Positions 7,247 to 64,000 are shown, numbered from the stretch's first letter. The stretch is DNA of 64,000 nucleotides from Candidatus Obscuribacteraceae bacterium (GCA_044226015.1 JBGAHS010000001.1:512001-576000); one strand, 5' to 3'. Program-made: numbers and translations. Notes: generated from the sequence alone by a model not told the origin.

Positions 7247-7385
7247 TATCGACTTTCGTTCAATCCCAAAGCAGTCGCAAGTGCGTCAGATGACTTGAAA
7301 GAGATTACCATGGATATAGGAAGCTTGCTTGCCGCTTGTAAGCCAAATTATAGGAAGCTAGTGAAATTGAAGATCATTCTGGCCA

Positions 7386-8936: not shown

Positions 8937-8940
8937 AGTA

Positions 8941-12687: not shown

Positions 12688-12710
12688 TAAAGAAAGAGTA
12701 GGGTCGAATT

Positions 12711-13253: not shown

Positions 13254-13285
13254 TTATCTGGCGACTTTGATTCAGGAGTTTTACC

Positions 13286-15064: not shown

Positions 15065-15079
15065 GAAAGGAATGCAGAT

Positions 15080-15562: not shown

Positions 15563-15600
15563 CTGATTGATGCGCGACAGTCTCTTTGCAGGAGGGAAAT

Positions 15601-16068
15601 ATGGCACGATCATATATTACTACTCAGAGTTATCATCCCTGTCCATGCTGTGGATATCGAGTTTTTCAAGTCGGAGGCATCAATGCAACATGTCCGATTT
15701 GTGTCTGGCAAGATAGTGTAGAGCAGTTGCTCGACCCCTATCGGGTCTCTGGGCCAAACTGGATCAGTCTCTATGACGCGCAACTTTCATATTTGCGCTG
15801 TGGAGTCTCGCAAATCGAAAAAGCTGAATTAGCAAGTACTCCTATGTCTTATGATGTTCGCGATAAGAAATGGCGACCGATTCAAAACTCTGATTCGTTC
15901 GGTACTGTTGAGAGGCGTTCTGCCCTGAAGGTAGACGATTATCACGAACTATTTTATTGGTTGGATGAATTTTGGAACAGCAAACATACATATATGCGGC
16001 GATTGCAAGTGTCTGCTTTATTTGAAACCAATAAGGCAAACAATGATTTTGCAATGAGTAGTATTTGA
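15601..16068 (+). CDS. CPCC-family cysteine-rich protein
   Basis: CPCCGY ... CPICVWQD ... GPN.ISL.DAQ; GGAGG RBS before ATG 15601. Confidence 0.78.
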   Translation: MARSYITTQSYHPCPCCGYRVFQVGGINATCPICVWQDSVEQLLDPYRVSGPNWISLYDAQLSYLRCGVSQIEKAELASTPMSYDVRDKKWRPIQNSDSFGTVERRSALKVDDYHELFYWLDEFWNSKHTYMRRLQVSALFETNKANNDFAMSSI

Positions 16069-18849: not shown

Positions 18850-21800
18850 ATGCCAGTCATATCCACGCCCGGTGTCGCGCGCCTGTCTTACGTTGTGGTC
18901 GCGCTATCAGTCTTGTTGCAGCCCAGCAGAGCTGTTCAAGCCGCAGATTTACCAATTAACCTGAATTTGTCGTCCACGCAAAAAACAGTACGTGTGCCAG
19001 GCAGTTTTGCAAACCCTGTCCAGATTCAAGTTGGAAATTCAAAACAAACGGTTTCGGCTGGGTCCGTGATCACCCCTGCGCAAATGTTGGCTGTACAACA
19101 GGTGCTTTCCTCTGGCTCTCAGTCCATAGTTATAGGTTCGCTGGGAAATGCTGTTGGCGGAAACTTCCAGCTTGCGAGCAATCAGACTTTCAACAATGTA
19201 ACCGTGCCTCGCAACGTCACACTCATAAACAACTTTTCCGGCGGAAGCCCATTTAACCTATCAGGCAATCTTGTAAATTACGGACATATTTTTGCTGTTT
19301 CTGAAAATTCTGCGGTCAGTAACGCTTTATTCTCAGCGCACAACATTACTAATTACGCTGGTGGACTCATAAGCAGCATGCTTCCTGGTGGTGGCATTGC
19401 GGGTTTCAGCAATGCCATTCCGAATTTGAGTCTTTCTCTTTTTGCCGTTAACAACATTCTCAACAACGGAAGCATCACCAGTGCTGGCAATCTGAACCTT
19501 GTGGCTGGCAATTCCATCATTAACAACAGCGCTGTCAGCGCTGCACCGGCTGTGATGTCAGCACTGGGCAACGTCAATATTGCGACACAAAACCTGGTAA
19601 ACAGCGGACTGCTGCAATCTTCGCTGGGCAACATTAACATTGTTGAGCAAGTGATTCGCAGTAATGAACTTTCGGCGCTAGCTCAATCAGCCAGTCTTAA
19701 CAGTGTTTTGGCTAATTACTCCAATACCAGAAATCTGAACATCAATAATGTTGGTGGCGTTATCGAAGCCCTGAAAGGTAGCGTCTCAATTGATTACAGC
19801 AATGCCCTTGAGAAAAATCTTCTTTCGTTTCATGGGGGCGATGTTCTATCTGATTCGTTAAAGATTGATGCAGGAAAGGGTGTCGTCAATATGTCACTCG
19901 AAAATTTGAGTGGCACTATCGATGTTAGTGCTGGCTGTGCTCAGATAGGCACATTGAGTTCGGCTTTGAATCTTGGTGACATCAATATAACTGGCGACCC
20001 GACTTTTTACAGCGCCTCTAATTTGAATCTCGCTGTGGGTCAGAAATTGCAGTTTGACGAGAAGATCAACTTACTGGCTGCCGGTGATATCAACCTTGGC
20101 GATGGAACTCTCTCTAAGTCTCTAGGGACTCAGGGCTACGACATCACAGTTGTCGCTGGTGGTGCTCTTACTGTAACGCCGGGAGCTCCTGTTTTTCCAA
20201 CTCAGATAACTGGAACCCAAACCGTGAAGGTAAGCGGACCTTCAAACACTGGTGGCAATATCAATTGCAGCACTTGTGTTATCGATACGTCATCAACAGG
20301 ACCCGGACAGAATGGTGGCAAAGTCATGCTGGCTGCCTTTAGCGACGTAAATGGCAACAAAGGAAATATAAGTTTTGCTGGTTCAATAAATACTTCCTCT
20401 ACATTTGAAAAGTCAGGTAGTGTCACTGTTATTGCACCGAACAATATTAGTCTGGGCAAGATTGATTCTACTGCTGCGAAAATCAGCACTAGCACCTCAG
20501 TACTTAACGTGAGCACCGCACAGCCATCAGGCACAATTACTGCCTCATCCAACGGCAACGTCAGCGGAAGTTTGACTGCTAAAACGATTACAAATGGCTC
20601 GGTCACTTTCACTGGAGCTGCTGCGGTGCACAGTGGTTCAATCAATGTAAAAGCTGGTAATGCGATCGTTCTTGCTAATGGAAGCAGCCTCGATACTAGC
20701 GGCTTTTACTTCACATTAGGTGGCGGTGCGGTAAAGCTTGATGCTGTGGGACCTACTGGACACATCGACCTCGGTGGCACCATTAACGTAAACGCCACTG
20801 ATGGACAAGATGGTGTAAGTCCAGGGCAAGCAGGGTCCGCAGCTGCTAAGGCAGGTTCAGTTACGATGACTGCTACTAGCGCTATAAATTCTCCTCTGGC
20901 TATGACTCTTACCGCTTTTGGCGGAAGCGGAGGCAAAGGTGCTGCTGGTTTGGCAGGAACCGCTTCGAAAGTCGCCGGCGGAAGTGGAGGTGCCGGGGGT
21001 GTTGGTACCGCTGGTGGTGTGGTGACAATAAAAGCACCTAGCGTCGACTTGAGTCTTGCTTCCATCAGTCTTTACGGTGGCTATGGTGGCGATGGTGGGG
21101 CCGGTGGCGCTGGATTTGGAGGCACTGCCGCTGCCGGTGGAGCCGGTGGCAAAGGTGGTGCCGGCGGCAAAGCGGCACCTGGTGGCACTTTGACTGTCAC
21201 TTCCACGAGCACATCGGGCGTGACTAATCTTTTCGCCCCGCTTAGCTTGATTTCGCTTGGCGGCAATGGTGGCGCAGGTGGTGCAGGTGCTGCTGGCGGC
21301 AGTAGCACTAAGACTAATGGCGGAGCTGGTGGAGCTGGCGGTGCCGGTGGGCTGGCTGAAGTCGGCGGTAAAGTGACGCTCACTGCCCCACTGGGAATAG
21401 CGCTAAATGGCGACATGGCGGTCGATGCAGGCTTCGGTGGAACCGGAGGACTTGGCGCTGCTGGAGGCAATGCAAGTGGTTCTGGCAACACTGGTAAGGG
21501 TGGAGCCGGCGGCTCTAGTGGAGCAGGTGGTGCTGGTGCTGCAGGCGGTACGGTCACCGTGACTGGTGGCAGCGTGTCGTTCGGTCATGGTGCCTTGACC
21601 AAGATAACTGCCTTTGGTGGTGACGGAGGCGCAACACTGGATGCCAAAGCTGGAGGTACTAGCACCGCAGGTACGGGCGGCGCCGGAGGCATCGCCGGTA
21701 ACAGTGGTAATGGTGGCATGGGCGGTACAGTGAAAATTACCGCTACAGCCGGAGGAATCGTAAACACTGGCAATACTGACTTGACCATTAGAGCCGATGG

Positions 21801-24800
21801 TGGATTTGGCGGAGCGCCAAATGGTGACGGAGGCGCCGGTGGGTCAGGTGCGATCGGCGGCAATGGTGGTCACGCAAGCAACGCCGGTTCTGGAGCTAAG
21901 GGAGGCACTATAACCCTGCTTGCTTCAAAAGGACTTGTTCAAACTGGCAACAAGCAGAAAGGTCTCATCAGTGCTTCTGCTGGTAGTGCTCAAGACCCTG
22001 TGAGTGCAACTCTGGGCGGACTCGGTGGTGTAGGATCTGTCGGTCTTGCAGGCAATGGCGGGGCGGGCGCCGTCGGCGGAAATGGTGGTATAGGTGGAAC
22101 CGTCACTCTTACTGGCACTGGTGTCATTTCTGATGGTTCAATAGAAGTATTTGGTGGTTCTGGATCCAGTGGGTTCGGTGCCGGTGCTGGTGCTTCTGGC
22201 AAAACTACCGGTGGATCTGGAGGTGCCGGAGGTAAAGGCGGCATTGGCGCCATAGGTGGCAACGTCACGATCACCGGAAATACTACCGGAGTTATAGCTA
22301 GATCCGGAATTTTTGGCGACGGTGGCAAAGGCGGTTTCGGTGCATCCGGCGGAATTGGTGCTTCTGGAGAAAACGGTGGCAATGGCGGTGCAGGAGGAGC
22401 TGGCGGCTCCGCAGGAAAGGGCGGCAATCTCACTATTTCTGGCTTGTCGGTTTCACTTCAGTCCGTGGATTTCCGCGGCAACCAGGGTGGCATCGGCGGG
22501 GCTGGACTAGCTGGCGCTACAGGCAGCAACGGCAAGGGGGGGTCTGGTGGTGCCGCAGGAGGCGGTGGCAACGGCGGCAGCGGCGGAATCGTCAATATCA
22601 AAACGCTGGCGGGAAGCATTCTGGCGAACAACTTCATTCTAGTGGATGGCTTCACCGGTGGCGACAACGCTGATGCTGGAAACGGTGGCATTGGAACCAC
22701 TCTGGGAGGAAATGGCGGAAATGTCGGAGCGGCTGGTGCTGGTGGCAGCTCAGGTAACATCACTATCTCAGCAAAGGGCGGCAACATTCAATTATTTGAA
22801 CTCAGTGCTATTGGAGGAGTCGGCGGAAACGCTATTGGTGATGGTGGCGATGCTGCTAGTGGAACTGGCTTGAAAGCCAACGGCGGATTAGGAGGTATCG
22901 CTGGAAATGCTGGCGCTGGTGGTGCCGGTGGCATAATATCTGTTAGCGCGAGCACATCTAGCGGAATAGCAAATATTCAGGCTGCCACAAACTACAGCAT
23001 CATCGCTAACGGCGGTGCTGGTGGAGCCGCTAAGGGCGGAGGTGGCAATGGTGGCGCATCTATTAATGGCGGCAAAGGTGGTGCCGGTGGTTCTGGCAGT
23101 GCTGGAGGTGCAGGTGGTGCAGGTGGAAGCATCACACTGAATGCACTAAAAGGTACTGTTTCAGACAACGCCACAGCAGGCGATATTCAAGCCGTTGGAG
23201 GTGCAGGAGGAAGCGCACCTTCTATTGCAACTGTGCTTGCGGACCTACCTACAGGCGGAAAAGGAGGCAATGGAACGCTTGCTGGAGGCAATGGCGGTGC
23301 CAGCGGACGAGGTGGTAATGGTGGTACTGGCGGCAAATTGACAGTCAATGCAATCTCCATCAGCAATCTTACCGATATGTACTTCGATGGTGGCGCAGGC
23401 GGTGGCGGCATCTTTGCCGGTGGAGCAGGCGGAACATCTTCAGGTGGAGCCGGTGGTATAGGTGGTGCTGGTGGCAGCGGTGGAGCCGGCGGGTTCGGTG
23501 GCAATGTCACACTGAATTCAACGGGGGTTGCTGGTGTCACCCTGGTTCAACAAGTGTCAAACGTTGGTGGCAATGGTGGCAGTCTGGTCTCGGTCAACGG
23601 AACCATCAACTCTGGTGGCGGTGCGGGAGGAGATAGTGGCGGTCTAACTAACGGTGGTGCAGGTGGTGCTTCCGGCAACGGTGGCAATGGCGGTCGGGGT
23701 GGCAGTCTGACTTTCACTGCTGTAGGCGCAGGCACCATCACTCTCAAGGCAGCAAATCTTTTTGTGCCAGGTGGTGTGGGCGGCAGTGTTCAATCTCTTG
23801 GTGGTGTTGGCGGTAACTCTAGTTCTAGGGTCGGTGGTGCAGGCGGCAAAGGTGGTTCTGCTGGCAGCGGTGGAGCCGGTGGGCTTGTAGTTTTTGTGAC
23901 TGGCTCTGGTGAGACTCAAGTTGACCAGATAGTTGCTGATGGTGGAGATACCGGTGCAATCTCTCTTTTAGCAGTGGGCGTCCCGAGTGGAGGCGGTGCA
24001 GGCGGCAATGGACTCACTGGAGGCGGCGTTGGCGGATCTTTCAGTAATCTCGCGATTGGCGGATTGGGTGGATCTGTAATTGTCCGCTCCGTTTCTGGAA
24101 ATTACACGCAGAATATCTCCAACAATGGCTCTAACATTTTTCTGCGCGGAGGCAACGGATTAAGTGCCAACGCCGTAGGGGGCAAGGGCGGTAGCGCATC
24201 TGGGGGCACAGGCGGTGTGGGAGGAAACTCGGGCGCAGGTGCAAGTGGAGGCGCCGGTGGATTCTTTCAATACACAGGTTCTGGAACCATCAAACTCACG
24301 TCAGGCTCCTCAATGACTCTTAGCGGCGGTTCGGGAGGCTCGGCGCTGCAGATTGGAGGCGTTGGTGGTACTGGATTGGGTGGAGTCGGTGGCAAGGGCG
24401 GCAATGGTGGCGCTGGAGGCTCCGGTGGTGCTGGTGGAAACTCCACTATAATCAATTCTGGAACTGGCGCAATCTCCGGAAGCAGTTCTACCATTAATGT
24501 AAATGGTGGAACTGGTGGTAACGCCGCTGATGCTGGTGCTGGAGGCGTCGGCGATGCAGGTGGTGTCGGCGGTAATGGTGGCGCTGGTGGTAGCACTGGG
24601 AAGGGTGGTGTCATTAGTTATAGCACCATAAGTGGTGCCATAATACTTGGCACGGCAAGCGCTCAAAGCTTGAATTCTGGCAATGGTGGCAAAGGTGGTA
24701 ATGGAGGCGCTGGCAACGTATTTCAAGGCGGGGCTGCGGGCAATGGAGGCAGTGCTGGTAATACTGGTAATGGTGGCAACATCACGATAACGGTTCAACA

Positions 24801-25542
24801 AGGAGCTGCCACTGTTACTGCATCTAGTGTGGCTGCCGGCAGTCTCGGAACTGCTGGAGGTGCTGGTAACTCAGGCACACCTAGCGGGGGGTCAGGCTCT
24901 GCAGGTGGTGCTGGTACCAAGGGTAGCGCTGGAAGTAAGATCATCAGTAATTTAGATGATGATTCATTTCCTTCTCTACGCAAGCGCAGGCATTCCTCAG
25001 AAGACCTCAAGCCAGTCGCGTTCGTTGAGAGCATTCTCTTGATGGATGGCAAACAATTCAATGCCAGCAATACTTTCCTTGCGCCGACAGAAAAGGACTT
25101 TCTGGCGCATACAAGTCATGCTGACATAAGCGTTTCGCAGGGGTCGCTTGCGTTCGTTGTAGACAACGGTCGGGACGTCTCTGTACTTGCTCTGCATGAG
25201 TCGAGGTCGGGCAAAATCACGGTGCATCTCGAAAATCGCGAGATCGTGCTGCACTCGGGTGAGCAGGTGATTATCACCGATTCAGATTTGGGTGCCAATG
25301 AGGCGAATCCTCTTACTCAGGTAGCAAGAAGGAATACTACCGAACACAACTTCAAATCGCATAGGGTATTTCTCAGCGAGTTTTCGATTCCCTCGGCGCT
25401 CGCATCACTGAAGCCTCTTAATAGACTCTCGCGTTCAGAGTCCAGGGCAGAAAAAGCAAGTTACTTCAAAATCCTGAAGAACGCTGCAGCTATTCAAGCT
25501 GTGAATGGTGTGCGAAAGGGAGCCTACAAACTGGGCTCCTGA
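18850..25542 (+). CDS. Giant secreted beta-strand/glycine-rich (PGRS-like) protein with conserved C-terminal domain
   Basis: 2230-aa ORF, Sec signal (AVQA|A), beta-helix-like Asn/Ser/Gly N-terminal region, ~1400 aa of GGxGGx repeats, CTD homologous to that of 53972..64000. Confidence 0.88.
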   Translation: MPVISTPGVARLSYVVVALSVLLQPSRAVQAADLPINLNLSSTQKTVRVPGSFANPVQIQVGNSKQTVSAGSVITPAQMLAVQQVLSSGSQSIVIGSLGNAVGGNFQLASNQTFNNVTVPRNVTLINNFSGGSPFNLSGNLVNYGHIFAVSENSAVSNALFSAHNITNYAGGLISSMLPGGGIAGFSNAIPNLSLSLFAVNNILNNGSITSAGNLNLVAGNSIINNSAVSAAPAVMSALGNVNIATQNLVNSGLLQSSLGNINIVEQVIRSNELSALAQSASLNSVLANYSNTRNLNINNVGGVIEALKGSVSIDYSNALEKNLLSFHGGDVLSDSLKIDAGKGVVNMSLENLSGTIDVSAGCAQIGTLSSALNLGDINITGDPTFYSASNLNLAVGQKLQFDEKINLLAAGDINLGDGTLSKSLGTQGYDITVVAGGALTVTPGAPVFPTQITGTQTVKVSGPSNTGGNINCSTCVIDTSSTGPGQNGGKVMLAAFSDVNGNKGNISFAGSINTSSTFEKSGSVTVIAPNNISLGKIDSTAAKISTSTSVLNVSTAQPSGTITASSNGNVSGSLTAKTITNGSVTFTGAAAVHSGSINVKAGNAIVLANGSSLDTSGFYFTLGGGAVKLDAVGPTGHIDLGGTINVNATDGQDGVSPGQAGSAAAKAGSVTMTATSAINSPLAMTLTAFGGSGGKGAAGLAGTASKVAGGSGGAGGVGTAGGVVTIKAPSVDLSLASISLYGGYGGDGGAGGAGFGGTAAAGGAGGKGGAGGKAAPGGTLTVTSTSTSGVTNLFAPLSLISLGGNGGAGGAGAAGGSSTKTNGGAGGAGGAGGLAEVGGKVTLTAPLGIALNGDMAVDAGFGGTGGLGAAGGNASGSGNTGKGGAGGSSGAGGAGAAGGTVTVTGGSVSFGHGALTKITAFGGDGGATLDAKAGGTSTAGTGGAGGIAGNSGNGGMGGTVKITATAGGIVNTGNTDLTIRADGGFGGAPNGDGGAGGSGAIGGNGGHASNAGSGAKGGTITLLASKGLVQTGNKQKGLISASAGSAQDPVSATLGGLGGVGSVGLAGNGGAGAVGGNGGIGGTVTLTGTGVISDGSIEVFGGSGSSGFGAGAGASGKTTGGSGGAGGKGGIGAIGGNVTITGNTTGVIARSGIFGDGGKGGFGASGGIGASGENGGNGGAGGAGGSAGKGGNLTISGLSVSLQSVDFRGNQGGIGGAGLAGATGSNGKGGSGGAAGGGGNGGSGGIVNIKTLAGSILANNFILVDGFTGGDNADAGNGGIGTTLGGNGGNVGAAGAGGSSGNITISAKGGNIQLFELSAIGGVGGNAIGDGGDAASGTGLKANGGLGGIAGNAGAGGAGGIISVSASTSSGIANIQAATNYSIIANGGAGGAAKGGGGNGGASINGGKGGAGGSGSAGGAGGAGGSITLNALKGTVSDNATAGDIQAVGGAGGSAPSIATVLADLPTGGKGGNGTLAGGNGGASGRGGNGGTGGKLTVNAISISNLTDMYFDGGAGGGGIFAGGAGGTSSGGAGGIGGAGGSGGAGGFGGNVTLNSTGVAGVTLVQQVSNVGGNGGSLVSVNGTINSGGGAGGDSGGLTNGGAGGASGNGGNGGRGGSLTFTAVGAGTITLKAANLFVPGGVGGSVQSLGGVGGNSSSRVGGAGGKGGSAGSGGAGGLVVFVTGSGETQVDQIVADGGDTGAISLLAVGVPSGGGAGGNGLTGGGVGGSFSNLAIGGLGGSVIVRSVSGNYTQNISNNGSNIFLRGGNGLSANAVGGKGGSASGGTGGVGGNSGAGASGGAGGFFQYTGSGTIKLTSGSSMTLSGGSGGSALQIGGVGGTGLGGVGGKGGNGGAGGSGGAGGNSTIINSGTGAISGSSSTINVNGGTGGNAADAGAGGVGDAGGVGGNGGAGGSTGKGGVISYSTISGAIILGTASAQSLNSGNGGKGGNGGAGNVFQGGAAGNGGSAGNTGNGGNITITVQQGAATVTASSVAAGSLGTAGGAGNSGTPSGGSGSAGGAGTKGSAGSKIISNLDDDSFPSLRKRRHSSEDLKPVAFVESILLMDGKQFNASNTFLAPTEKDFLAHTSHADISVSQGSLAFVVDNGRDVSVLALHESRSGKITVHLENREIVLHSGEQVIITDSDLGANEANPLTQVARRNTTEHNFKSHRVFLSEFSIPSALASLKPLNRLSRSESRAEKASYFKILKNAAAIQAVNGVRKGAYKLGS

Positions 25543-53971: not shown

Positions 53972-56900
53972 TTACTTCATAGCCGATAGCGGTCGTGAAT
54001 ATTGCTGGTAGGGACCCTTTCCTTTGTTCATATTTAGGGTCACGGCTGTTGTTTTCAGAATACTATTGAGCAATTTCCTAGCTTGAGGTCTTTCTGTTGT
54101 AAGCATTGTTCTCAGCGGTTTGACCGCAGAAATCGTTGAGAGAACAGAGAATTCCGAGCTATGTAGTTTCCATCCATTCCCCAAATTCTGAGAACTCAAG
54201 TTTCGATGTGAGATAGCTTCGAGCTTATTTAGTTCGGCAAACTCTCCCATGAATTGAGGAGCAAGCGTGAGATGCATTCCTGGTGCAAGATGGTAGCTGC
54301 CAAAAGCGCTGTTGATCTTCACTGAACCAGCAGCAGTGTCATGAAGGTCAAAAATAGAAATCATCTCTGAGTTGCTGCTTAGCAAAACAACAGCTCCAGC
54401 TTTAATGCTGATGGTTCCCTGGGGAATTTTGAGTTCTAAGTCTTTGCTTGGTGCTAGCAGGAACTTGCCTTCCTCAATCGATAGATTCTGCTTTTCATGA
54501 ATGCTCTCAATTCCGAGGTCTAGATCACTGTATACCTCAGCTGAGATACTCGCGCTCTGCACCTTATCGATAAACGAGGATGATTCATCTTTGGATATTC
54601 CACCAAACAATGCTCTTGTTTTTTCGGAGGCGATATCGGCTCCATTTGATGTCGCTTGCTTCACGAGGGCGTTAGTTGTAGCTGTCCTGGAAACTATCTG
54701 AGTGTCCGCAAAAACGGTAGAAAGGGCGTTCATCTCGGCTGGCATAGATATGTTTACCGAAGATTTCTGTCCTCCCGATGTTCCATTCAAAGCAGCACTC
54801 TGAGTCAGGTTTGGAATTCCACTAGAAATGGAATTGCCAGCCGTCGAGTGATTGTTACTTTGCTGTGTTGAATGCAGAGGCGATGCAATCGCTGGTGTAG
54901 AGCTTGTTGGGACGGCGAGCGATAAGGATGCTAGTGGTGGGTCGGCAGTTATAGTTGTTGGGGACCCACCATTTACTGTGATGGCGGATGCTGGCAATTT
55001 TCCTGTATTGAATATGACGTTTTTGCCGATAGCATTTAAGAAGACTGCCGAAGGTACGCCGCCTATCTTGATGCCATTCGTGCCATAGAATATTTTTCCG
55101 CCACCGCTCTCCGTTATATTTGCGGGCGGTAGGTTAGATGGGGCTGTCCCCTGCACAGGAGTCTTTGAGAGAGTTCCTATTATGATGTTGACGTTACCTC
55201 CACCGACGCCGCTTGTTGCAATCGTGCCAGCAGCGCCGATAAGTATAGAACCCGCTGTGCTGTTGCTATTTTCCAGAGTGATTACAGACGGTGCTGATTT
55301 GTTTGTTCCAGCAGCAAGAATCTGAGCACTAACCGCCGTCTGAAGTAAACCAGCAGCAGCTGCGATAACGGTAATGGAACCGTTAGTCGTTGAGATGCTG
55401 TTCAGAGTGAGGGGGCCGCTCGCGTTAAGGGTGAAGCTGCCGCCGGCGCTTGAATTGTTCAATACCATGGCAGTCTTATTGCTGTTTTTTAAGTTCACCA
55501 GACCTGCAGTGCCTGTGTTAGCGCTAAAAACTGCCGCTGCCAGGTTAAGCGCAGTCTTGCTGCTTCCGATGTTGCCGAAGCTGCTGGAGAGAATCAGGTC
55601 GCTCGAGGCTTTGAGTAAGCCGGTTCCACTTATGTCGCCAGTAGTTGTGCTGAGCGTGACAAAAGTAGTTGTTTTGCCTCCCACGGGTTTGTTTAGGACA
55701 ATGCTGCCCACGCTTGAGGTAGAGTCTAAGGTTATCTTCGTTGCTGAAATACTGGCGTTGTTGATGATTCCCGCTCCAGAGTAGAGCGTGAAGTCAGATG
55801 CGCTGGTCGCTGATTTCAATGTGACGGGGACGGCTCCAGTGTTGAGAATGTTAGCTGTACCAGTTGAGTTCGCTGACAAGTTACTCGTTTGTACAATTAG
55901 GGCTCCGATTGGGGTACCCAGATTTCCGCTAGCACTTACGAGGGAGACTGTCGTGGCGCTGATTGCCTGCGTACTTGTTGTATTTATACTACCAGTTCCA
56001 GTTGCCGTCAGGCTTATGGTGCCACCAAGGCTGGTGGCGCTAATTTTCTCGCCTACATTTATGTCTTTTCCGCTTGTGCTGGTCTTTAGTGTAACTGATT
56101 TGCCGGCGGTGATGCTGCCGCTGGTGTTAATGGTAGATGATGAGAGTAGCGTAAATGTAGAGCTGCTGCCGGTTGCTGAAGACGCACCAAGGTTCAGCGC
56201 GGCGCTTCCTGTACTGGTCAGGTTGATGCTTGCTGATGAATTAGCAAAGAGATTACTAGTGTTTACTTTAATTCCGTTGATGCTTCCGGTTTCCGTTGTT
56301 AGTCGAACGGTGTTTGCTTGAACAGGCGATTTCAATGAAATCGTGCCTGTGCCACCAGCCTTTATTTGAATTTCAACGGTTGAGGCGCTACCCAGTTGTG
56401 AGCCGACGCTTATCGTTCCTTTTGCTGCACCGCTTGTGTCCAGCATTACAGTGCCCGGAGAAGTGAGTGGCTGGGTGCCTGTTGTGATAGCTCCCCCGCG
56501 GTTGCTTACAGAAATTACTCCTGTTCCTAGAGCCGTCGATCCATTCGAAATAGTTATGAGTCCCTTGATACCGTTTGTTATCTTGGCACTTGCACTCTGA
56601 TTCAATAAGAATGCGGTGCTGGAGTTAGATGATAAATAGACGGAGCCGCCGTTGCCGCCATTCGCGCCGCTAGCGAAAGTCAACGGTGCTGTAACTAAGA
56701 GATTTCCTGAGGACTTCGAGCCCGCAGTTAAGCTGAGCGATGCGCCAGTGCCTGTTGAGCTGCTGGGTCCGAGATTAAAGAGGCTAGCTGATGGATTTAC
56801 CGTCAGGTTGCCACCGGCGCTGAAACTGAAGCTGCCACCGTTTACTCCACTTGTACTTACCTGGAGATTATTTTCGTTAAGAGTGTATGCTGCAGCAGAA

Positions 56901-59900
56901 TTTAGGTTGTATATAACCTTACCTCCATTGCCGCTGCCGGTTCCACTTGCGTCAAGAATCAAAGGCAGCGATTTAGAGATTACATTAGACGCAGCGATAA
57001 CCAGTGTGCCACCATTTTGAGATGCATCTGTTGCGGCAGTGAGTTGGGAAGATGGGAAGGCTGAAATATCGATGGTGCCAAATCCGGCGTCCAGCGTAAT
57101 CTGGTGAGCTAACGGATTCGAAGCCAGGCTTATCTTGTAGTTGCTAGGTCCTCCCGTATACAAAGCCATAGAGTTCTGTCCTGCATTTACAGTTCCTGCA
57201 ATGCTGATATCCTGCGCGAGATTTCCATCGCTTACAGTGAAGCCACCCTTGCTTATAGCTCCCGCACTTACTACTACAGGGGCATTAGTCTGTGTGACAG
57301 ATCCAGACCTGATGGTGATCGACCCCGAATTGCTGAGTAGGGTGGCAGAAGTGTTCAGGCTGTTGGCTTTTACTCCAAAACCCATAATAGTGATGTTACC
57401 CGAGTTGAGGTTTCCACCTGATGTGGTGATATCTTTTAGAACTGCTGTTCCGCCGTGTGCCACCACCGTTACATCACCGCCACCAAGAGTGCCTGTTGTA
57501 TCGATATTCACTGCATGCCCGCTCGTGTTGAGCAAAATCGAACCACTGCCACTTTGATTGAGAGTGTATTGTGTTTGGTCGGGACCCGCTGTGCCGGAGG
57601 TACTCGGTAGGAATGTATAACCTGCAATGAGTGTCAAGTTGTATCCATGTCCAGCTGACGAAGATAGATTCAATGTCAGATTGTCTGCACCTGTGTTGAT
57701 GATGTCGCCAGCCGAGAGGATTGTTAGATTAGAGCTGTATTGCAGTGTTGGAAGCTTGGACAAATCGATTGGACCCGAGCTATTTGCGATAGTCGCTCCG
57801 CTGTTAGATGCAAAAATCAGTTTTGACTGCGGGTTTGTTGCTGGGTGCAATTCAATTGTGCTATTCGAATTTCCGGTAACCAGTTTGTTTGTGTTCAGGT
57901 ATACCGTGGTGTTATTTGTTTGAAAGTCCAGAACTACATTTCCATCAATAGTCACCGAAGAGCTGTCACCAGAGTTCGCTGTTAAGTTGACTGTTCCTGC
58001 TGGAGTTCCATTAAATACGAACTGCGTCGTGCTCGCAAATTCAAGGCTTGGATAAGTGCCTGTCTGATTATTTCCTTGAGCTATGAAGTTGATAGAGCCA
58101 TTGTTGACTGACGAGAAAACGCCTGAAGCGTTTCCTGTGATTTGAACATCCTGTCCGAGGGCTCCTGTGACAAAGATGTCCCCGCTGGATGTTATCTGTC
58201 CAGAATTGTCGAGGAACATGGCTTTTCCGTTCCCGAAGCTTCCATTGACTGTCGCCCCCTGTATGCGCACCTGGCTGCCATTCAGTGATGCGCCTGAATT
58301 CACAGTGACCTTATCTGTGTATATGGTTATGTCAGTTGCGTTATTGCTACCATCGAACGCTATTGAAGAACTTGAGGAAAGAAGCAATGTTGAAGCTTTT
58401 GCGTTGTTTAGTGAGCTAGCGCTCTTAAGCCCAAGATAGGCAGCTCCTGATGTTTTTAGATCAAGATTAATCGAGCCATTTCCATTCGAGAGGTTTATTC
58501 GGTTGGATAGTGTGCCGAAGTTTCCGCTGCCGTCGCCGTCTTTTCCGCTAAGGGTGGAAATGAGTCGAATATTTGAGGATATGAGACTTGAGCCGTTGGA
58601 TGAGCTTAGTAGTCCTTGCTGATCAATGCCAACGGAAATGCCAGTAGAAGCGGTGATGTCACCGGAAAAACTAATGTTGGATTTTGTTGAGTTGAGGTTG
58701 ATTTGCGCACCGTTAACTGGTCCAACAGATACTCCACCAGCGCCAGTGCTGATGCTGATGTCACCATTCCCGCTGGTGCCGGCTTTGCTTCCGCTAGCAC
58801 CTTTAATTCCTTGCGCGGTGGTTGTGCCACCGCCACTGCCGCCGGTGCCAGGGGCTCCTAGCCCTACTCCTCCGACTCCTGCGACGATAGCTATATTGAA
58901 TGTTCCAGCGTTACCTCCGGCGTTGGAGAGCCCTGGTGAGCCTGGAGTGCCTGCCTTCAAAGAATCTCCTGAGCCACCAGATCCACCGGCATTATAGCTT
59001 CCACCGCTTCCTCCGCCATTTGCCAGATTAGCTTGGTTTCCACCGCCACCACCGCCGCCGCCGAAGAATCCTGCACCGCCGCCGCCGCCGACACCATTTT
59101 GACTTGTTATGCCGTAGCCACCGCCGCCACCGCCGCCGCCGCCGCCATAGCTTCCGCCACCGCCGCCGCCTCCTCCTCCATTAGATTGAGTCGAGCCGCC
59201 AGCACCGCCTATACCTCCGTCGCCACCGGCAAGCGCGAAGGTGCTTCCAGCTATGTTTACTCCCTGGGCTGCCGTGATGCTGATTTTTCCTGCGGTTCCG
59301 CCAGCTCCGGCTACACCACCGGCGCCATTCTGGGCTCCGCCGCCACCACCGCCGCCGCCTCCTCCTCCAGAGCTGTTGACGTTTGCCCCAATCTGGATGC
59401 TACCTGTGTCACTGTTTATGCTGATGTTTCCGCCTGAGCCGCCGGCTCCACCCTGCTGCCCGACGGCTCCCGCACTTGTCCCGCCACCGAAGCCGCCCCC
59501 GCCACCGCCACCGAAGCTCAAAACGTTGCTTGTAACAGCAATGTTGCCGCCGACATCTATAAGTACGCTACCGCCCGAGCTACCACTTGTGGCGTTTGCT
59601 CCGTTAACGGATTTTCCGCCCAGTCCCGCAGTGATAATTGAGTTTACTGTAACTGCGCCGCTGCCCTTTAATTGCACGCTGCCACTGCTGGTGGTGATAT
59701 CGCTTGTCAGAATGCTTCCTAGTTGTGAGCTTCCTACTCCAATTGATGACTGTGCTACGCCATTGCTGAAGCTAATGCCACCTGACACATCAGGCTCAAA
59801 CATTAGCAGCTGAACATTGCCGCCCCCGCCTGGCGCAGTTGCGATGCTGCTTATGTTCTGTGCTACCAATGTGTCAGAGCCACTAGAAGAAGCGCCTGCA

Positions 59901-62900
59901 ATGACTGTGATTGAACCACCCGAGCTATTACCTGTCGAAGTTACGTTAGCAATATTGATGAAACCTACTCCATCAGTTGTCGATTTCCCGTAAGCCGCAA
60001 GAATTATTTGTCCTCCCGCGCCTGAGCTTGAGGACGCATTCAATGAAGTACTTGCAAGAAGAATTGAACCTCCGGAATTGCTTGCGCCAGTCACTGTCAT
60101 AGTGCCTGGAGTCGAACTGTTGATTGTATACTGTGCGCCTGCTATCAACGAGAGACTTCCGCTGGCAGAGCTGCCTGATGTATCTAGTGTTTGAGCTTTT
60201 CCCGTGTTCTGTATTATGTTTTGCCCCGCAACTGCAAGAAATGAAATTCCTTTTGAAGAGGGGAAGAAGGCCGTGTTATTGAAAATTCCATCCAGCGAAA
60301 TGGTGCCTTGAGCAGATAGGCTCAAAGCTGAACCTGCGCCGCTTAGTTTGAAACTACCAGTTCCGGCAAGTGATAGATTTCCATTACTGTCTAGCGCCAA
60401 TGCCTTTGCTGTCCCAGGGTCTACAGCTCCGTTGTTAACGATTTGCGCACTCCTCAGATAAGCACCTGATGTAGCGCTGAGCTGAGATAGATTGCTTATC
60501 TGCAACGTGGAATTCGACGATAAAGCCAACTGTGTTGTTGCGATAGTGCCACTTACCGCGAGGTCATTTCCTGCAGTGATATCCAGCACCGCTGCGCTGA
60601 ACGAACCAAGGGTTGAATATTGGGACTGGTTTTGTACGTAAGCATCACCTGAAGTCGAACCATGGATGAATCCTGCGGAAACTCCAAAAGGTGCCGTAGG
60701 GCTTCCGATGCCTCCTATTCCCGCCTGCACATTGATGGAATCGGCTGTTACCGCTAGCCCACCGGGAGAACTTATGCTTCCGGCAGGTCCAGAAGCGAGG
60801 AATACTGCACCTGCATCAATTGAAACGATGCTAATGCTGCCGCTTGGAGCTCCTGAACTAAATGAACCTGTCAGCATGCCCTGTAACACTGTAGTGCCAG
60901 GTGCGGCGATTGGGTGCGTTGCGGTGATACTAACGTTGCCCTTAATTTGACCAGTTGCGTTGATAGTGCCTAATGTTACTCCGGGTCCAAGAATCTCAAC
61001 TGAGCCAGCGCTTCCTTTGCTTGCGTGTGTGTCGATGACGGAGATGCTCGTGGTGCCCTCGTAATTGGCTACAGTAACGTTGCCTCCCTGTGAGGTGCCC
61101 GAAGTGCTAATAGAGCCAATTACTATTGAGCTGCTCCCAAAGGATGATTGGAAGCTGTTAAACGTAGTGAGCAAATCAGGATTCGTAGTGGTTCCGAATG
61201 AACCAAGCGGTAAATAATTTGAATTTGCGATTAGAGTGAGATTCCCTCCCCCCGAACTCAGGCTGCTTAAGTCGATTGAGTTACCATGAATTCCCATTGA
61301 CGAAATAAGAGCCAGGCTTTGCCCGTTAAAGGAAATTGTGTCGAAGTCAATGTCTGTGAGACTGGCAACCGTACCTGCGCCAGTTGTGTTAACAGTCACC
61401 TGTTTCGCATCATATTTGCCGGCTGCGGTGGTACTTGCGCTGTTCAACACTATCTTTCCCGCAGCTATGGAGTCAGCGGCGAACGGCGAGCTGCTAAATC
61501 CACTGGCCGGGTAGTGGGTGCCTATCGTGCTCGTGACCGAGATTGTTCCAGCGCTCAGCGTGACAGTGCCATCTGCGCCATTGCTACCTGAAAGTACGGA
61601 AGAGCCTCCTGCGCCGCCAGGTCCTCCCTGTCCGAAATTTCCTCCAGGAAGTGGGAACTGTCCGCCGCCGCTCCCAAATACGCCAGGGTCGCCCGGTCCG
61701 ACTCCGCCACCAAAAGCGCCACCTCCACCAGTGCCCGAGCCTAGCAAGCCGCCACCGCCACCGCCGAAGTAGCCACCGCCGCCGGAGGCTGGGTTCGTTA
61801 GACCTCCGACAGCGCCACCGCCGCCACCGAACGCCCCGCCACCACCGCCGTAGAGCGCTGAACCATCTCCGCCTCCATTTCCTCCGCCAGCTGCAAGTAT
61901 GGGACCTGTTGATGTAAGCGCCTGACCAGCAGAAAGGGTTATGTTGCCTGAAGCCCCGCCTGTACCGCCTGCAAACTGATAACTGGCTCCGCCGCCTCCG
62001 CCAGACGCATTCACGTCGCCGCTTATACTCAGGCTACCGATTGATGAACTGACGTCGATTGTTCCGCCGGAGCCTCCGCTACCTCCCTGCGCACCGAAGT
62101 TGAATTGTGCACCAGAACCTCCCCCACCATATGCTTGCAGGGAACCGGTGTTGACCGAACCGTGAGCATGCACATTGATGTTGCCGCCATCGGCTCCATT
62201 CGATGCCTGGTCCAGAATGTTGGCGCCACCACCGGCGGTGATCAGATCTCCGGCCTTGATTTGGGCATTTTGTGTTAACGATGAACTTGCCGTTATGCTG
62301 CTGTTATCTGCAGAGTTCAAATTCCCGGGCAGAACGATCGAAGCTTGTCCTGGAGTATCAGAATTGACTATGGGTTGTGCAGCCAGAATGCTAATGTTAC
62401 CGCTATGGGAATCGCGTCCGCCACTGGTTGTTATCGAGCCCGTCGACACTGCAACGCTGATGGAGTCTGAACCGCCTGCAATTATTGTTACGTTTCCACC
62501 ATTTCCGCCGCTTGAAAAAAGACCTGGGTTTCCGGTTGTATTAATTGAATTCGTTGCCGTGTTTAGTTTGACGTAACCGCTAGTGCCTCCATTTGCGAAA
62601 GCCGCCAGGGTGACATTGCCACCGCTAGTAGTGCTATGAGTGTCAATCGCGGCGCCTGTGGTGTTGCTGGTGAGGTCAATGCTTCCTCCAGTGCTGCTGG
62701 GCCCACTGATTGTCACTGAGCTGACACTTGAGGTGCTTGGGGGAATTGCCGTGACTGAACTGCCACCATTGATGCTCGTGACGTTTGCTCCTGCGACCAT
62801 TAGTATGTCGAATCCAGGACTTACTATCGACGCTGAGTTGTCGAGTCCTATGATGTTGCCGCTTGCGATAATCGCAACGTTTTCTCCAAAGGTGTTTGTG

Positions 62901-64000
62901 CCAGCAATCGAAATATCGCCGCCGCTGTTAACAAAAATGGGGTCACCACTTATGGTGTTATTTCCAAGTGTAAGATTTGCTGTGTTGGCGGCTAAGTGTT
63001 CAATTCCTGCTATTGTATTTAGCTTGCCGCAAATGTTGTTGACGATGCCTTCGATGTCTCCTGATCCAGAAAATATGTTCAGGTTTTTTGAATAGTAGTC
63101 GCCGCCAAGCAAGTTGGTATTTGCTAGCGCTGTGAAATCTGCCGTTCTGATATTGATATTGTCGGCTGCTCTGAAGACGCCTCCGAGTGCAGTAATATCG
63201 ATGTTATTTTGCAGTGCCGTCGCGATATTAATGCTGCCCGTCTTTGATTCTATAAGTCCTGAGTTGATAATTTGTCCGCTGCCTATAGATAGGTTGACGT
63301 CACCTGCATGGCTGCTAATCTGCCCAGTGCTTGTATTGGTGAACATTCCGCCGGTGAGAATCGTTAACGCACCCGAGCTGCTGATTGAGCCACTGTTTGC
63401 AAAATCCATGGCTGAGTTCAAAATCAAATTGATTGGCGAATTAGATTGCGAGAAAAGCGAAGAAATAACTCCGCCCGATTCATTATTGATATTCTTTGCT
63501 GATACTAGCGCTGTTGCTCCACCTGTGGCGCTTGAAACGAGATTGATGCTTCCGTAATTTACTAGCGAACCAGTGACTTTAAAGGCACCGTTTTTTGAGA
63601 CATCGTCAATTGCGGTAACACCGCTTGCAATAACAAGCTCGTTAGCTCTCAGAGATCCACCGCGCGCTGTCAAATTATCCAGGCTGATGGTACCACCCAC
63701 AGCTCGTCCGCTATTATCGAGCACTAGCTGTTGAGCCCCTGTGTTCAATACTTGTTTAATCGAAAAATACTCTGCGGCAGTTACTCGAGAGCCCGCGGCA
63801 AATGACTTGTTGTTTCCACCTTCGAAAATGGTGATAACGGAACCTGCCTTCATTAGCTGATTGCTAAGAACTACGTTCGTGTTTGCAGAACTGAGGTCGA
63901 AAGACATCGCTTTGTTGGAAGCAAACTGTGCTGACTGATTCAAGTTTGTCGATTGTGGAGTGATGAAGCCTGTAATCTTGTGCGAGTTGTATGCGTTAAA
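53972..64000 (-). CDS. Giant beta-helical/Gly-rich surface protein (more than 3340 aa, 5' end outside the window) with conserved C-terminal domain
   Basis: Frame stays open from 64000 (FNAYNSHKITGF...) to TAA at 53972; Ser/Gly/Thr/Asn-rich beta-strand repeats, two poly-Gly islands, N- and C-terminal homology to 18850..25542. Confidence 0.88.
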   Translation of the reverse strand, partial: FNAYNSHKITGFITPQSTNLNQSAQFASNKAMSFDLSSANTNVVLSNQLMKAGSVITIFEGGNNKSFAAGSRVTAAEYFSIKQVLNTGAQQLVLDNSGRAVGGTISLDNLTARGGSLRANELVIASGVTAIDDVSKNGAFKVTGSLVNYGSINLVSSATGGATALVSAKNINNESGGVISSLFSQSNSPINLILNSAMDFANSGSISSSGALTILTGGMFTNTSTGQISSHAGDVNLSIGSGQIINSGLIESKTGSINIATALQNNIDITALGGVFRAADNINIRTADFTALANTNLLGGDYYSKNLNIFSGSGDIEGIVNNICGKLNTIAGIEHLAANTANLTLGNNTISGDPIFVNSGGDISIAGTNTFGENVAIIASGNIIGLDNSASIVSPGFDILMVAGANVTSINGGSSVTAIPPSTSSVSSVTISGPSSTGGSIDLTSNTTGAAIDTHSTTSGGNVTLAAFANGGTSGYVKLNTATNSINTTGNPGLFSSGGNGGNVTIIAGGSDSISVAVSTGSITTSGGRDSHSGNISILAAQPIVNSDTPGQASIVLPGNLNSADNSSITASSSLTQNAQIKAGDLITAGGGANILDQASNGADGGNINVHAHGSVNTGSLQAYGGGGSGAQFNFGAQGGSGGSGGTIDVSSSIGSLSISGDVNASGGGGGASYQFAGGTGGASGNITLSAGQALTSTGPILAAGGGNGGGDGSALYGGGGGAFGGGGGAVGGLTNPASGGGGYFGGGGGGLLGSGTGGGGAFGGGVGPGDPGVFGSGGGQFPLPGGNFGQGGPGGAGGSSVLSGSNGADGTVTLSAGTISVTSTIGTHYPASGFSSSPFAADSIAAGKIVLNSASTTAAGKYDAKQVTVNTTGAGTVASLTDIDFDTISFNGQSLALISSMGIHGNSIDLSSLSSGGGNLTLIANSNYLPLGSFGTTTNPDLLTTFNSFQSSFGSSSIVIGSISTSGTSQGGNVTVANYEGTTSISVIDTHASKGSAGSVEILGPGVTLGTINATGQIKGNVSITATHPIAAPGTTVLQGMLTGSFSSGAPSGSISIVSIDAGAVFLASGPAGSISSPGGLAVTADSINVQAGIGGIGSPTAPFGVSAGFIHGSTSGDAYVQNQSQYSTLGSFSAAVLDITAGNDLAVSGTIATTQLALSSNSTLQISNLSQLSATSGAYLRSAQIVNNGAVDPGTAKALALDSNGNLSLAGTGSFKLSGAGSALSLSAQGTISLDGIFNNTAFFPSSKGISFLAVAGQNIIQNTGKAQTLDTSGSSASGSLSLIAGAQYTINSSTPGTMTVTGASNSGGSILLASTSLNASSSSGAGGQIILAAYGKSTTDGVGFINIANVTSTGNSSGGSITVIAGASSSGSDTLVAQNISSIATAPGGGGNVQLLMFEPDVSGGISFSNGVAQSSIGVGSSQLGSILTSDITTSSGSVQLKGSGAVTVNSIITAGLGGKSVNGANATSGSSGGSVLIDVGGNIAVTSNVLSFGGGGGGGFGGGTSAGAVGQQGGAGGSGGNISINSDTGSIQIGANVNSSGGGGGGGGGGGAQNGAGGVAGAGGTAGKISITAAQGVNIAGSTFALAGGDGGIGGAGGSTQSNGGGGGGGGGSYGGGGGGGGGGYGITSQNGVGGGGGAGFFGGGGGGGGNQANLANGGGSGGSYNAGGSGGSGDSLKAGTPGSPGLSNAGGNAGTFNIAIVAGVGGVGLGAPGTGGSGGGTTTAQGIKGASGSKAGTSGNGDISISTGAGGVSVGPVNGAQINLNSTKSNISFSGDITASTGISVGIDQQGLLSSSNGSSLISSNIRLISTLSGKDGDGSGNFGTLSNRINLSNGNGSINLDLKTSGAAYLGLKSASSLNNAKASTLLLSSSSSIAFDGSNNATDITIYTDKVTVNSGASLNGSQVRIQGATVNGSFGNGKAMFLDNSGQITSSGDIFVTGALGQDVQITGNASGVFSSVNNGSINFIAQGNNQTGTYPSLEFASTTQFVFNGTPAGTVNLTANSGDSSSVTIDGNVVLDFQTNNTTVYLNTNKLVTGNSNSTIELHPATNPQSKLIFASNSGATIANSSGPIDLSKLPTLQYSSNLTILSAGDIINTGADNLTLNLSSSAGHGYNLTLIAGYTFLPSTSGTAGPDQTQYTLNQSGSGSILLNTSGHAVNIDTTGTLGGGDVTVVAHGGTAVLKDITTSGGNLNSGNITIMGFGVKANSLNTSATLLSNSGSITIRSGSVTQTNAPVVVSAGAISKGGFTVSDGNLAQDISIAGTVNAGQNSMALYTGGPSNYKISLASNPLAHQITLDAGFGTIDISAFPSSQLTAATDASQNGGTLVIAASNVISKSLPLILDASGTGSGNGGKVIYNLNSAAAYTLNENNLQVSTSGVNGGSFSFSAGGNLTVNPSASLFNLGPSSSTGTGASLSLTAGSKSSGNLLVTAPLTFASGANGGNGGSVYLSSNSSTAFLLNQSASAKITNGIKGLITISNGSTALGTGVISVSNRGGAITTGTQPLTSPGTVMLDTSGAAKGTISVGSQLGSASTVEIQIKAGGTGTISLKSPVQANTVRLTTETGSINGIKVNTSNLFANSSASINLTSTGSAALNLGASSATGSSSTFTLLSSSTINTSGSITAGKSVTLKTSTSGKDINVGEKISATSLGGTISLTATGTGSINTTSTQAISATTVSLVSASGNLGTPIGALIVQTSNLSANSTGTANILNTGAVPVTLKSATSASDFTLYSGAGIINNASISATKITLDSTSSVGSIVLNKPVGGKTTTFVTLSTTTGDISGTGLLKASSDLILSSSFGNIGSSKTALNLAAAVFSANTGTAGLVNLKNSNKTAMVLNNSSAGGSFTLNASGPLTLNSISTTNGSITVIAAAAGLLQTAVSAQILAAGTNKSAPSVITLENSNSTAGSILIGAAGTIATSGVGGGNVNIIIGTLSKTPVQGTAPSNLPPANITESGGGKIFYGTNGIKIGGVPSAVFLNAIGKNVIFNTGKLPASAITVNGGSPTTITADPPLASLSLAVPTSSTPAIASPLHSTQQSNNHSTAGNSISSGIPNLTQSAALNGTSGGQKSSVNISMPAEMNALSTVFADTQIVSRTATTNALVKQATSNGADIASEKTRALFGGISKDESSSFIDKVQSASISAEVYSDLDLGIESIHEKQNLSIEEGKFLLAPSKDLELKIPQGTISIKAGAVVLLSSNSEMISIFDLHDTAAGSVKINSAFGSYHLAPGMHLTLAPQFMGEFAELNKLEAISHRNLSSQNLGNGWKLHSSEFSVLSTISAVKPLRTMLTTERPQARKLLNSILKTTAVTLNMNKGKGPYQQYSRPLSAMK

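What the first reader, a model, noticed from the sequence alone, without database searches (positions are those of the whole stretch)
53972..54484. Shared C-terminal domain on two unlinked giant proteins: candidate sorting signal of an undescribed secretion/surface-display system
Seen: the last ~170 aa here (FLLAPSKD...ISIKAGAVV...ISIFDLHDTAAGSVKI...LAPGMHL...NKLEAISHRN...SEFSVLSTISAVKPL...ILKTTAV...KGPYQ) align motif by motif with 25009-25542 (FLAPTEKD...ISVSQGSLA...VSVLALHESRSGKITV...LHSGEQV...NPLTQVARRN...SEFSIPSALASLKPL...ILKNAAAI...KGAYK). The middles of the two proteins differ greatly, and the domain has ordinary globular composition. Known: autotransporters end in a beta-barrel, TpsA proteins carry an NPNG-type TPS motif and usually a neighbouring TpsB, T1SS cargo has GGxGxD RTX repeats. 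None of these is evident, and both genes end at their own terminators. Inference: the first half looks FecR-like (beta-sandwich) and the second half is a basic helical tail. It could act like the T9SS CTD, as a common export or anchoring tag for a family of giant adhesins in this lineage.
Basis: partly seen in the sequence, partly recalled or inferred. Interest (0 to 1): 0.88.

Follow-up and report, generated by a model that had tools for sequence, protein, structure and literature searches.

The report
FecR-like stopper anchoring giant surface fibres
About 60 proteins in this genome, most of them giant fibre-like exported proteins, end in the same unnamed domain, whose genes travel with an unnamed predicted outer-membrane barrel across a whole bacterial order; the domain likely acts as a stopper that holds the fibres on that barrel, which would be an undescribed way to display very large proteins on the cell surface.

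Summary
The shared C-terminal domain is real (25% identity, E 5e-12). It is one of about 66 copies on 62 proteins in this Candidatus Obscuribacterales genome; those genes make up about 7% of the DNA. Its predicted fold is a FecR/PupR-type beta-solenoid plus four helices. The giants also share an N-terminal TpsA-like beta-helix, but no TpsB was found. The domain occurs in 98 of 107 genomes of the order. An unnamed predicted outer-membrane barrel of about 12 strands co-occurs with it (96 both, 8 neither) and sits beside it (21 of 40 barrel loci versus 14% expected). It is not an obligatory T9SS-like tag: 21 of 23 short sister beta-helix proteins lack it, and it also occurs alone, in tandem and on a membrane histidine kinase. 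Best reading: an optional periplasmic stopper that likely docks on the barrel and tethers exported fibres, as the HMW1/CdrA anchors do. This scan noted the same family and a barrel earlier on another contig of this genome (e1-9162072).

The parts
53972..54510 (-). Shared C-terminal domain of giant protein A: FecR/CJM-like beta-solenoid, beta-hairpin and four helices; invariant Lys in LKTTA (54044-54058), SEFS (54146-54157), GPY (54008-54016)
54511..54934 (-). Low-complexity Ser/Thr/Ala/Asn linker of about 140 aa between the beta-helix and the domain (105-258 aa in 18 paralogues); predicted to span the membrane pore
   Evidence: role inferred
54935..54952 (-). ITADPP motif at the end of the repeat region (15 of 48 own giants; background 0.0)
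54953..63490 (-). Gly/Ser/Thr/Asn-rich repeat passenger of protein A, likely beta-helix; includes the conserved SGDPIF motif at 62933-62950
   Evidence: fold inferred from the model of the paralogous N-terminus
63491..63919 (-). Conserved N-terminal domain of protein A (family of 41 ORFs in the genome)
53972..64000 (-). Gene of giant protein A; continues past the window, start and signal-peptide-like stretch at G000:C11:576309; 3445 aa
53918..53953 (-). Terminator-like hairpin after gene A
18850..25542 (+). Gene of giant protein B, 2230 aa, with a signal-peptide-like stretch at about 18850-18942
18943..20442 (+). N-terminal 500 aa of B: about 70-aa cap then a TpsA-type beta-helix (pLDDT 90.6; EtpA, HMW1 and HxuA secretion domains Z 16.9-19.8); TGDPTF motif at about 19990-20007
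20443..25008 (+). Gly-rich repeat passenger of B (up to 38% Gly) and short charged linker
25009..25542 (+). KPVAF motif (25009-25023) and shared C-terminal domain of B

Best explanation
The domain is a conserved C-terminal module with a predicted FecR-like fold, and it likely stays in the periplasm as a stopper that docks on an unnamed predicted outer-membrane barrel and so tethers giant Sec-exported beta-helix fibres on the cell surface. Shown: the family, its C-terminal position, the shared N-terminal domain, and order-wide co-occurrence and gene adjacency with the barrel. Predicted: both folds. Inferred steps: (1) Sec exports the protein. (2) The N-terminal TpsA-like region threads through the roughly 12-stranded barrel and the beta-helix folds outside. 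(3) The 105-258-aa linker lies in the pore and the folded domain cannot follow. (4) Proteins without the domain are released. (5) Small cargo-free copies and the kinase-borne copy bind the same barrel face, as assembly partner, plug or sensor.
For: Family size and position. Fold: pLDDT 89.6; only FecR-type periplasmic domains stand out (4m0h Z 9.3, rmsd 2.6, 106 aligned; 6ovm Z 8.4, rmsd 2.9, 105 aligned; next Z 3.7). Periplasmic side: the domain precedes the transmembrane helix of a hybrid kinase, a fusion matched in 5 of 7 other genomes of the genus. Passenger resembles TPS secretion domains, yet G000 has one Omp85 gene, POTRA_2 over the cut-off only there and no ShlB match. Barrel co-occurrence among 107 genomes: 96 both, 8 neither, 2 domain only, 1 barrel only; copy numbers correlate (Spearman 0.55, n = 96). 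Adjacency: domain within 9.5 kb in 21 of 40 barrel loci, domain or N-terminal domain in 25 of 40, versus 14% and 18% of random G000 windows. The one barrel-bearing genome among 151 outside the order (G390) has a domain gene overlapping the barrel's start codon. The N-terminal domain was found in 0 of 11 genomes that lack the domain or the barrel. The domain is optional on sister proteins. C-terminal periplasmic anchors are known in HMW1, HxuA and CdrA (PMC5422565, passages).
Against: Neither window gene lies near a barrel, and only 1 of the 3 barrels of G000 has a domain gene nearby. Three barrel genes would have to serve about 46 giants. The barrel fold and strand count come from sequence pattern and Atlas look-alikes only. 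Many genomes have barrel plus small domain proteins but no giant (9 of 10 low-copy genomes), so the pair has a job without large cargo. Shared absences are not independent: the genomes are kin, the genes are linked, and 6 of the 8 double negatives are under 90% complete. The ShlB control rang in none of 14 control genomes, and G000 is 92% complete. In PupR the partner binds mainly the STN subdomain and linker, which this domain lacks (PMC7186176, passages). BamA and two secretins are also present.
Confidence: 0.55

Rival explanations
1. The barrel and the domain form a trans-envelope receptor or signalling pair of the FecA-FecR kind. The barrel is not the translocator; the giants cross by BamA or a secretin and merely use the pair for docking or sensing.
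For: The FecR-type fold. The most conserved members are small proteins with an N-terminal hydrophobic stretch, a Pro-rich linker and the domain, found in genomes without giants. There is a kinase fusion. The barrel has many invariant charged residues. BamA and two secretins exist.
Against: In 10 of 20 second-clade barrel loci the neighbour is a giant beta-helix gene, including further cases coordinates. No TonB-dependent receptor was found in G000. The domain lacks the STN subdomain.
Confidence: 0.22
2. The domain is a true sorting signal as in T9SS: it is recognised in the periplasm, exported with or ahead of the cargo, held by the barrel on the outer face (PorV-like) and possibly cut off.
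For: Strict C-terminal position, a flexible linker and a conserved Asp-Pro or KP[IV][AG][FY] motif before it (29 of 48 own giants). 39 of 41 own N-domain proteins carry it.
Against: 21 of 23 short sister proteins lack it, with no separate copy in the flanks fetched. All giants share an N-terminal TPS-like region that could be the signal. It occurs on an inner-membrane kinase and in cargo-free proteins. Its predicted fold is FecR-like, not matched to T9SS CTD models.
Confidence: 0.15
3. The domain is a partner-free folding cap, oligomerisation or cell-wall-binding module, and the barrel linkage reflects shared envelope gene clusters.
For: The tail is basic (median pI 9.4, net +6 in the last 60 aa), tandem copies exist, and G000 giants have no recurring neighbours.
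Against: A 105-258-aa linker separates it from the helix. The gene overlaps the barrel gene in distant G390, and adjacency is well above background.
Confidence: 0.08

Closest known systems
Two-partner secretion (type Vb) with C-terminal periplasmic anchor: HMW1/HMW1B, HxuA/HxuB, CdrA/CdrB
   Same: Sec signal, conserved N-terminal beta-helix that superposes on the EtpA, HMW1 and HxuA secretion domains, long variable repeat passenger, optional C-terminal anchor (PMC5422565 passages).
   Different: No PF05860 or NPNG motif and an extra 70-aa cap; no TpsB found. The linked barrel is not Omp85-like and has no POTRA match. The anchor is a 170-aa FecR-like domain, not a small disulfide loop. Dozens of unlinked passengers share few barrels.
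FecR/PupR anti-sigma periplasmic CJM subdomain (PDB 6ovk/6ovm, 4m0h; PF04773)
   Same: Predicted beta-solenoid superposes (Z 8.4-9.3); periplasmic setting.
   Different: No anti-sigma domain; the STN subdomain is replaced by a helical bundle; no PF04773 match; profile match to an own FecR domain only 8%; sits at the end of giant fibres.
T9SS C-terminal domain with PorV shuttle (Bacteroidota)
   Same: Many Sec-exported proteins share a C-terminal domain, with a dedicated outer-membrane barrel as partner (PMC12618676 and PMC4560394, abstract starts in the listing).
   Different: Different length and fold, no Pfam/NCBIfam match, not required on sister proteins, also found on an inner-membrane kinase.
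LapA retention module in a TolC-like pore (T1SS)
   Same: A folded periplasmic module keeps a giant adhesin in its pore (10.1101/198937, title and abstract start in the listing).
   Different: LapA has no periplasmic Sec step and (recalled) its module is N-terminal; here the cargo has Sec-like signals and a C-terminal module.
Slam/T11SS and BBP2 barrels (PF04575, PF10082)
   Same: Atlas feature look-alikes of the barrel carry BBP2_2 (12-27%) and SlipAM (44% of one cluster).
   Different: None of 40 barrel sequences matches either family; no TPR domain in the barrel; about 12 strands by eye.

Membership tests
T9SS C-terminal sorting domain | Match to T9SS CTD family models | tested here: not met
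   No such family among hits for 42 members in Pfam or for both window domains in NCBIfam
T9SS C-terminal sorting domain | Domain required on cargo of the family | tested here: not met
   21 of 23 complete short sister proteins lack it (sample chosen for shortness); 2 of 41 in G000
T9SS C-terminal sorting domain | SprA/PorV/Gld machinery in the genome | not tested
   No search for these families was run
T9SS C-terminal sorting domain | Cleavage of the domain at the surface | not testable with these tools
   Needs proteomics
Two-partner secretion (TpsA/TpsB) | Sec signal peptide | tested here: met
   Crude heuristic: 48 of 62 versus 26% of 4447 background ORFs; visible in both window proteins
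Two-partner secretion (TpsA/TpsB) | N-terminal TPS domain by sequence (PF05860, NPNG) | tested here: not met
   No Pfam hit on either full protein; no NPNG; the genome search was blank but its control was silent
Two-partner secretion (TpsA/TpsB) | TPS-type beta-helix fold | tested here: met
   VIA Z 19.8 (2odl, rmsd 3.3, 268 aligned), 19.3 (8cpk), 16.9 (4i84); other beta-helices reach Z 15-16 and Foldseek E is at best 0.017
Two-partner secretion (TpsA/TpsB) | TpsB (Omp85 family, two POTRA domains) partner | tested here: inconclusive
   One Omp85 gene with POTRA repeats; POTRA_2 over the cut-off only there; ShlB 0 in G000 with silent control; 12 of 107 order genomes have one weak match each, 11 of them in 689-769-aa frames, likely BamA. 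Points to absence, but the genome is 92% complete.
Autotransporter (type Va/Ve) | Barrel in the same polypeptide as the passenger | tested here: not met
   The C-terminus models as a soluble beta-solenoid plus helices; no Pfam hit on the full proteins
FecR anti-sigma factor | CJM-like beta-solenoid | tested here: met
   Z 9.3 and 8.4 versus 3.7 for the next row; Foldseek E 0.001-0.005
FecR anti-sigma factor | Cytoplasmic anti-sigma domain, one TM helix and C-terminal STN subdomain | tested here: not met
   The domain ends in four helices; the carriers are fibres, small exported proteins or a kinase
FecR anti-sigma factor | Gly-Thr self-cleavage site (non-conserved, FoxR) | tested here: inconclusive
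   After the conserved Gly (33 of 42): Ser 18, Ala 17, Thr 5, other 2; equivalence of the position rests on a recalled FecR motif
T1SS/RTX adhesin | No Sec signal, C-terminal GGxGxD repeats | tested here: not met
   Signal-peptide-like N-termini; 0 and 2 GGxGxD matches
Slam / T11SS barrel (for the partner) | PF04575 match and TPR domain | tested here: not met
   0 of 40 members match; only Atlas feature similarity

The most novel reading that the evidence does not exclude
Obscuribacterales have their own protein secretion system: a POTRA-less, non-Omp85 barrel of about 12 strands translocates TpsA-like beta-helix fibres of up to 14,400 aa here (25,007-aa frame in a relative), a repurposed FecR fold locks them in the pore, and a kinase carrying the same fold reports pore occupancy. 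This would be a new two-component export class, a split autotransporter with a modular periplasmic lock.
Probability: 0.35. Interest if true: 0.92.

Novelty: new variant of a known kind. Interest (0 to 1): 0.78.

Why it matters
An uncultured order of non-photosynthetic cyanobacterial relatives spends up to about 7% of its genome on giant TpsA-like proteins, with no recognisable TpsB. The finding names two unannotated families: the domain (2,747 clusters at 50% identity) and a barrel (394 hits). Together they give a small, testable candidate machine for export and retention of very large proteins. If the barrel translocates, outer-membrane export of long beta-helices by a separate partner is not limited to Omp85 proteins. 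It also suggests a role for FecR-type folds outside iron signalling.

Tried and rejected
No RNA holder was listed for the gene. The search for related loci found nothing with the single sequence and could not use the alignment. The word-based homologue searches found only 6 and 2 proteins. No solved-structure match by sequence for the domain (best hits were de novo designed proteins, E 8e-4) or for the barrel. Neighbour clustering in G000 gave only response regulators and kinases. Secretin STN docking was considered because of the FecR fold and one secretin near a giant gene; I dropped it because PupR binds its partner mainly through the STN part, which is missing here. The OprB/SomA-type porin was not followed up as a partner. 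My first heuristic barrel scans missed the barrel; it was found through the neighbours of the conserved small member. A shared PTD motif between barrel N-terminus and giant linkers is not enriched (5 of 48, background 9%). The IQ-TREE run timed out; FastTree was used. Literature searches with no describing paper: 0 papers; 3 papers, 2 listed, neither on this; TPS and giant-gene papers; the giant-gene preprint has 0 mentions of FecR, Melainabacteria or Vampirovibrionia. Subscription papers and supplements were not searched.

Full report
Observation. The two ORFs are 18850-25542 (+, 2230 aa) and 53972-63943 (-). The second continues past the window; in the genome it is 3445 aa with a signal-peptide-like start. 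Their last 170 aa align at 25% identity, E 5e-12, and score 129 against a shuffle maximum of 56. Neither C-terminus nor either full protein has a significant Pfam or NCBIfam match.

The family in this genome. An HMM iterated from the two domains over all six-frame ORFs of G000 (8.19 Mb, 92% complete) finds 66 domains on 62 ORFs at iE < 1e-20. These ORFs total 197,788 aa, 7.2% of the genome. 46 of the 80 ORFs of 1500 aa or more carry it, the longest 14,400 aa. At iE < 1e-8, 63 of 64 ORFs have it within 40 aa of the C-terminus. The exception has the domain before a Pro-rich linker, a transmembrane helix and histidine-kinase and receiver motifs (read from the sequence; labels recalled). That fusion is matched in 5 of 7 other genomes of the genus. 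About 13 carriers are small exported proteins with one or two copies. A crude signal-peptide rule passes 48 of 62 carriers versus 26% of other ORFs.

Range. A 42-sequence profile hits 2,747 clusters at 50% identity; all 150 listed have it within 40 aa of their end (these are the best-scoring ones and many are fragments). It occurs in 98 of 107 genomes of the order and in 0 of 200 sampled from the rest of the phylum. NCBI names on homologues place the order as Candidatus Obscuribacterales, a diderm lineage (PMC4040986, passages).

Folds. The domain models at pLDDT 89.6 as about 13 strands and four helices. The only matches above background are FecR-type anti-sigma periplasmic domains: 4m0h Z 9.3 and PupR 6ovm Z 8.4, next 3.7; Foldseek E 0.001-0.005. 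PupR's periplasmic part has a CJM beta-solenoid and an STN subdomain, and its partner binds mainly the linker and STN (PMC7186176, abstract and passages). Here helices replace the STN. Sequence-level kinship to FecR is not detectable. The giants also share an N-terminal domain: 41 ORFs, 39 of them with the C-terminal domain. The first 500 aa of protein B model at pLDDT 90.6 as a capped beta-helix, closest to the EtpA, HMW1 and HxuA secretion domains (Z 16.9-19.8; other beta-helices reach 15-16). A [GED]DP[TVIL][FYI] motif lies in the first 750 aa of 35 of 41, versus 0.005 expected. An ADP or KP[IV][AG][FY] motif precedes the linker in 29 of 48. Whether these Asp-Pro bonds are cut is unknown.

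Machinery. G000 has one Omp85 gene, POTRA_2 over the cut-off only there, no ShlB or TPS match (controls silent), two secretins, many TolC-like proteins and no TonB-dependent barrel. An earlier scan note (e1-9162072) said the tail docks on an unnamed barrel; it gave no coordinates, and I looked for one. In 20 low-copy genomes most copies are small proteins orthologous to G000 C9:607534-608472. Two genes upstream of that gene lies a Pfam-less protein with a signal peptide and amphipathic strands. It has two paralogues in G000, Atlas look-alikes among BBP2/Slam-type barrels and about 12 strands counted by eye, with invariant charged residues. It occurs in 97 of 107 order genomes: 96 have both families, 8 neither, 2 the domain only, 1 the barrel only (Fisher p 1.2e-9; copy-number Spearman 0.55). 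Kinship, linkage and incompleteness inflate these figures. I fetched 40 of the 150 listed barrel matches, picked by hand for contig room. 21 of 40 have the domain within 9.5 kb, and 25 of 40 the domain or the N-terminal domain, versus 14% and 18% of random windows in copy-rich G000. In the second barrel clade, 15 of 20 loci are positive and 10 of 20 lie beside a giant gene. Outside the order 1 of 151 class genomes has the barrel. That genome, G390, has a stand-alone domain gene whose stop overlaps the barrel start; it was the only positive of five genomes tested, and G240, which has the barrel, stayed negative. The N-terminal domain was absent from all 11 genomes lacking domain or barrel and all 9 out-of-order genomes tested, and present in 1 of 10 low-copy and 4 of 4 high-copy genomes. 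ShlB matches in the order are weak (12 of 107) and absent from those four.

Against an obligatory tag. In 20 loci from four relatives, chosen for the shortest N-domain frames, 21 of 23 complete proteins lack the C-terminal domain and no separate copy lies in the flanks. They stop at the end of the helix or carry a short acidic tail. Two G000 giants do the same. The sample is biased to short proteins, but it shows the family does without the domain.

Mechanism. The pattern fits a TpsA-like passenger with an optional C-terminal anchor. HMW1, HxuA and CdrA keep a periplasmic C-terminus that locks them in their pore (PMC5422565, passages). I infer that Sec delivers the protein, the N-terminal region threads through the barrel, the helix folds outside, the 105-258-aa linker crosses the pore, and the folded domain stays inside and binds the barrel. 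Weak points: the window genes are not near a barrel, only 1 of 3 G000 barrels has a domain neighbour, and the pair exists without giants, which keeps a receptor/signalling reading at about 0.22.

Comparison and novelty. It works like two-partner secretion with a retained anchor, but fails the TPS sequence test and shows no TpsB. It is not T9SS, autotransporter, RTX or a FecR anti-sigma factor (see membership tests). Eight searches aimed at the system or its lineage and anchors found no description; the library lacks most subscription papers, and supplements were not read. I rate it a new variant of a known kind, with a 0.35 chance of being a distinct secretion class. The scan had already noted the family on another contig of the same genome, and FecR-barrel-beta-helix clusters in other phyla; I did not test the latter.

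Noticed in passing
L123:12565-14889 (G000 C9:608564-610888); L124:3345-5843 and 6830-9010: Multi-pass membrane proteins without Pfam or NCBIfam match (5 paralogues) recur next to the small core domain gene in many genomes; by recall they resemble GT-C glycosyltransferases and might modify the exported proteins.
   Followed up: partly
L125:2814-5486 (G000 C8:14810-17485): An 891-aa HerA/DUF87-like ATPase whose homologues lie divergent to the small core gene in several relatives.
   Followed up: partly
L201 (G000 C6:296884-300378): Hybrid histidine kinase with the domain as its outer module, conserved in 5 of 7 other genomes of the genus.
   Followed up: partly
L202 (G000 C10:420504-429710 and 433146-442265); L219-L222: Domain-less beta-helix proteins end in a short acidic tail with a [IV]DT[GSQ] motif, a possible second terminus type.
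   Followed up: no
L198:5040-6485; L123:11535-12473: A PTD[VIT] motif occurs both in the N-terminal segment of the barrel (invariant Asp) and just before the domain in the small core proteins; not enriched in giant linkers.
   Followed up: partly
L199 (G000 C8:340215-343454): The third barrel paralogue carries an about 700-aa Ala/Lys/Pro-rich C-terminal extension.
   Followed up: no
G312:C3:174658-249498: A 25,007-aa open frame in a relative carries both the N-terminal and the C-terminal domain.
   Followed up: no
window 51024-53741: 905-aa protein with Roadblock/LC7-like domains, convergent on gene A.
   Followed up: no
window 12136-16068: Cluster with a TadE/G-like vWA protein (13286-15064) and small neighbours, probably Tad pilus related.
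   Followed up: no
window 183-1682: TPR array fused to a matrixin (M10) peptidase domain.
   Followed up: no
G000 C11:156590-160273 and C4:407760-411065: Two domain carriers with simple-repeat N-terminal halves appear frameshifted or mis-assembled relative to an upstream ORF.
   Followed up: no
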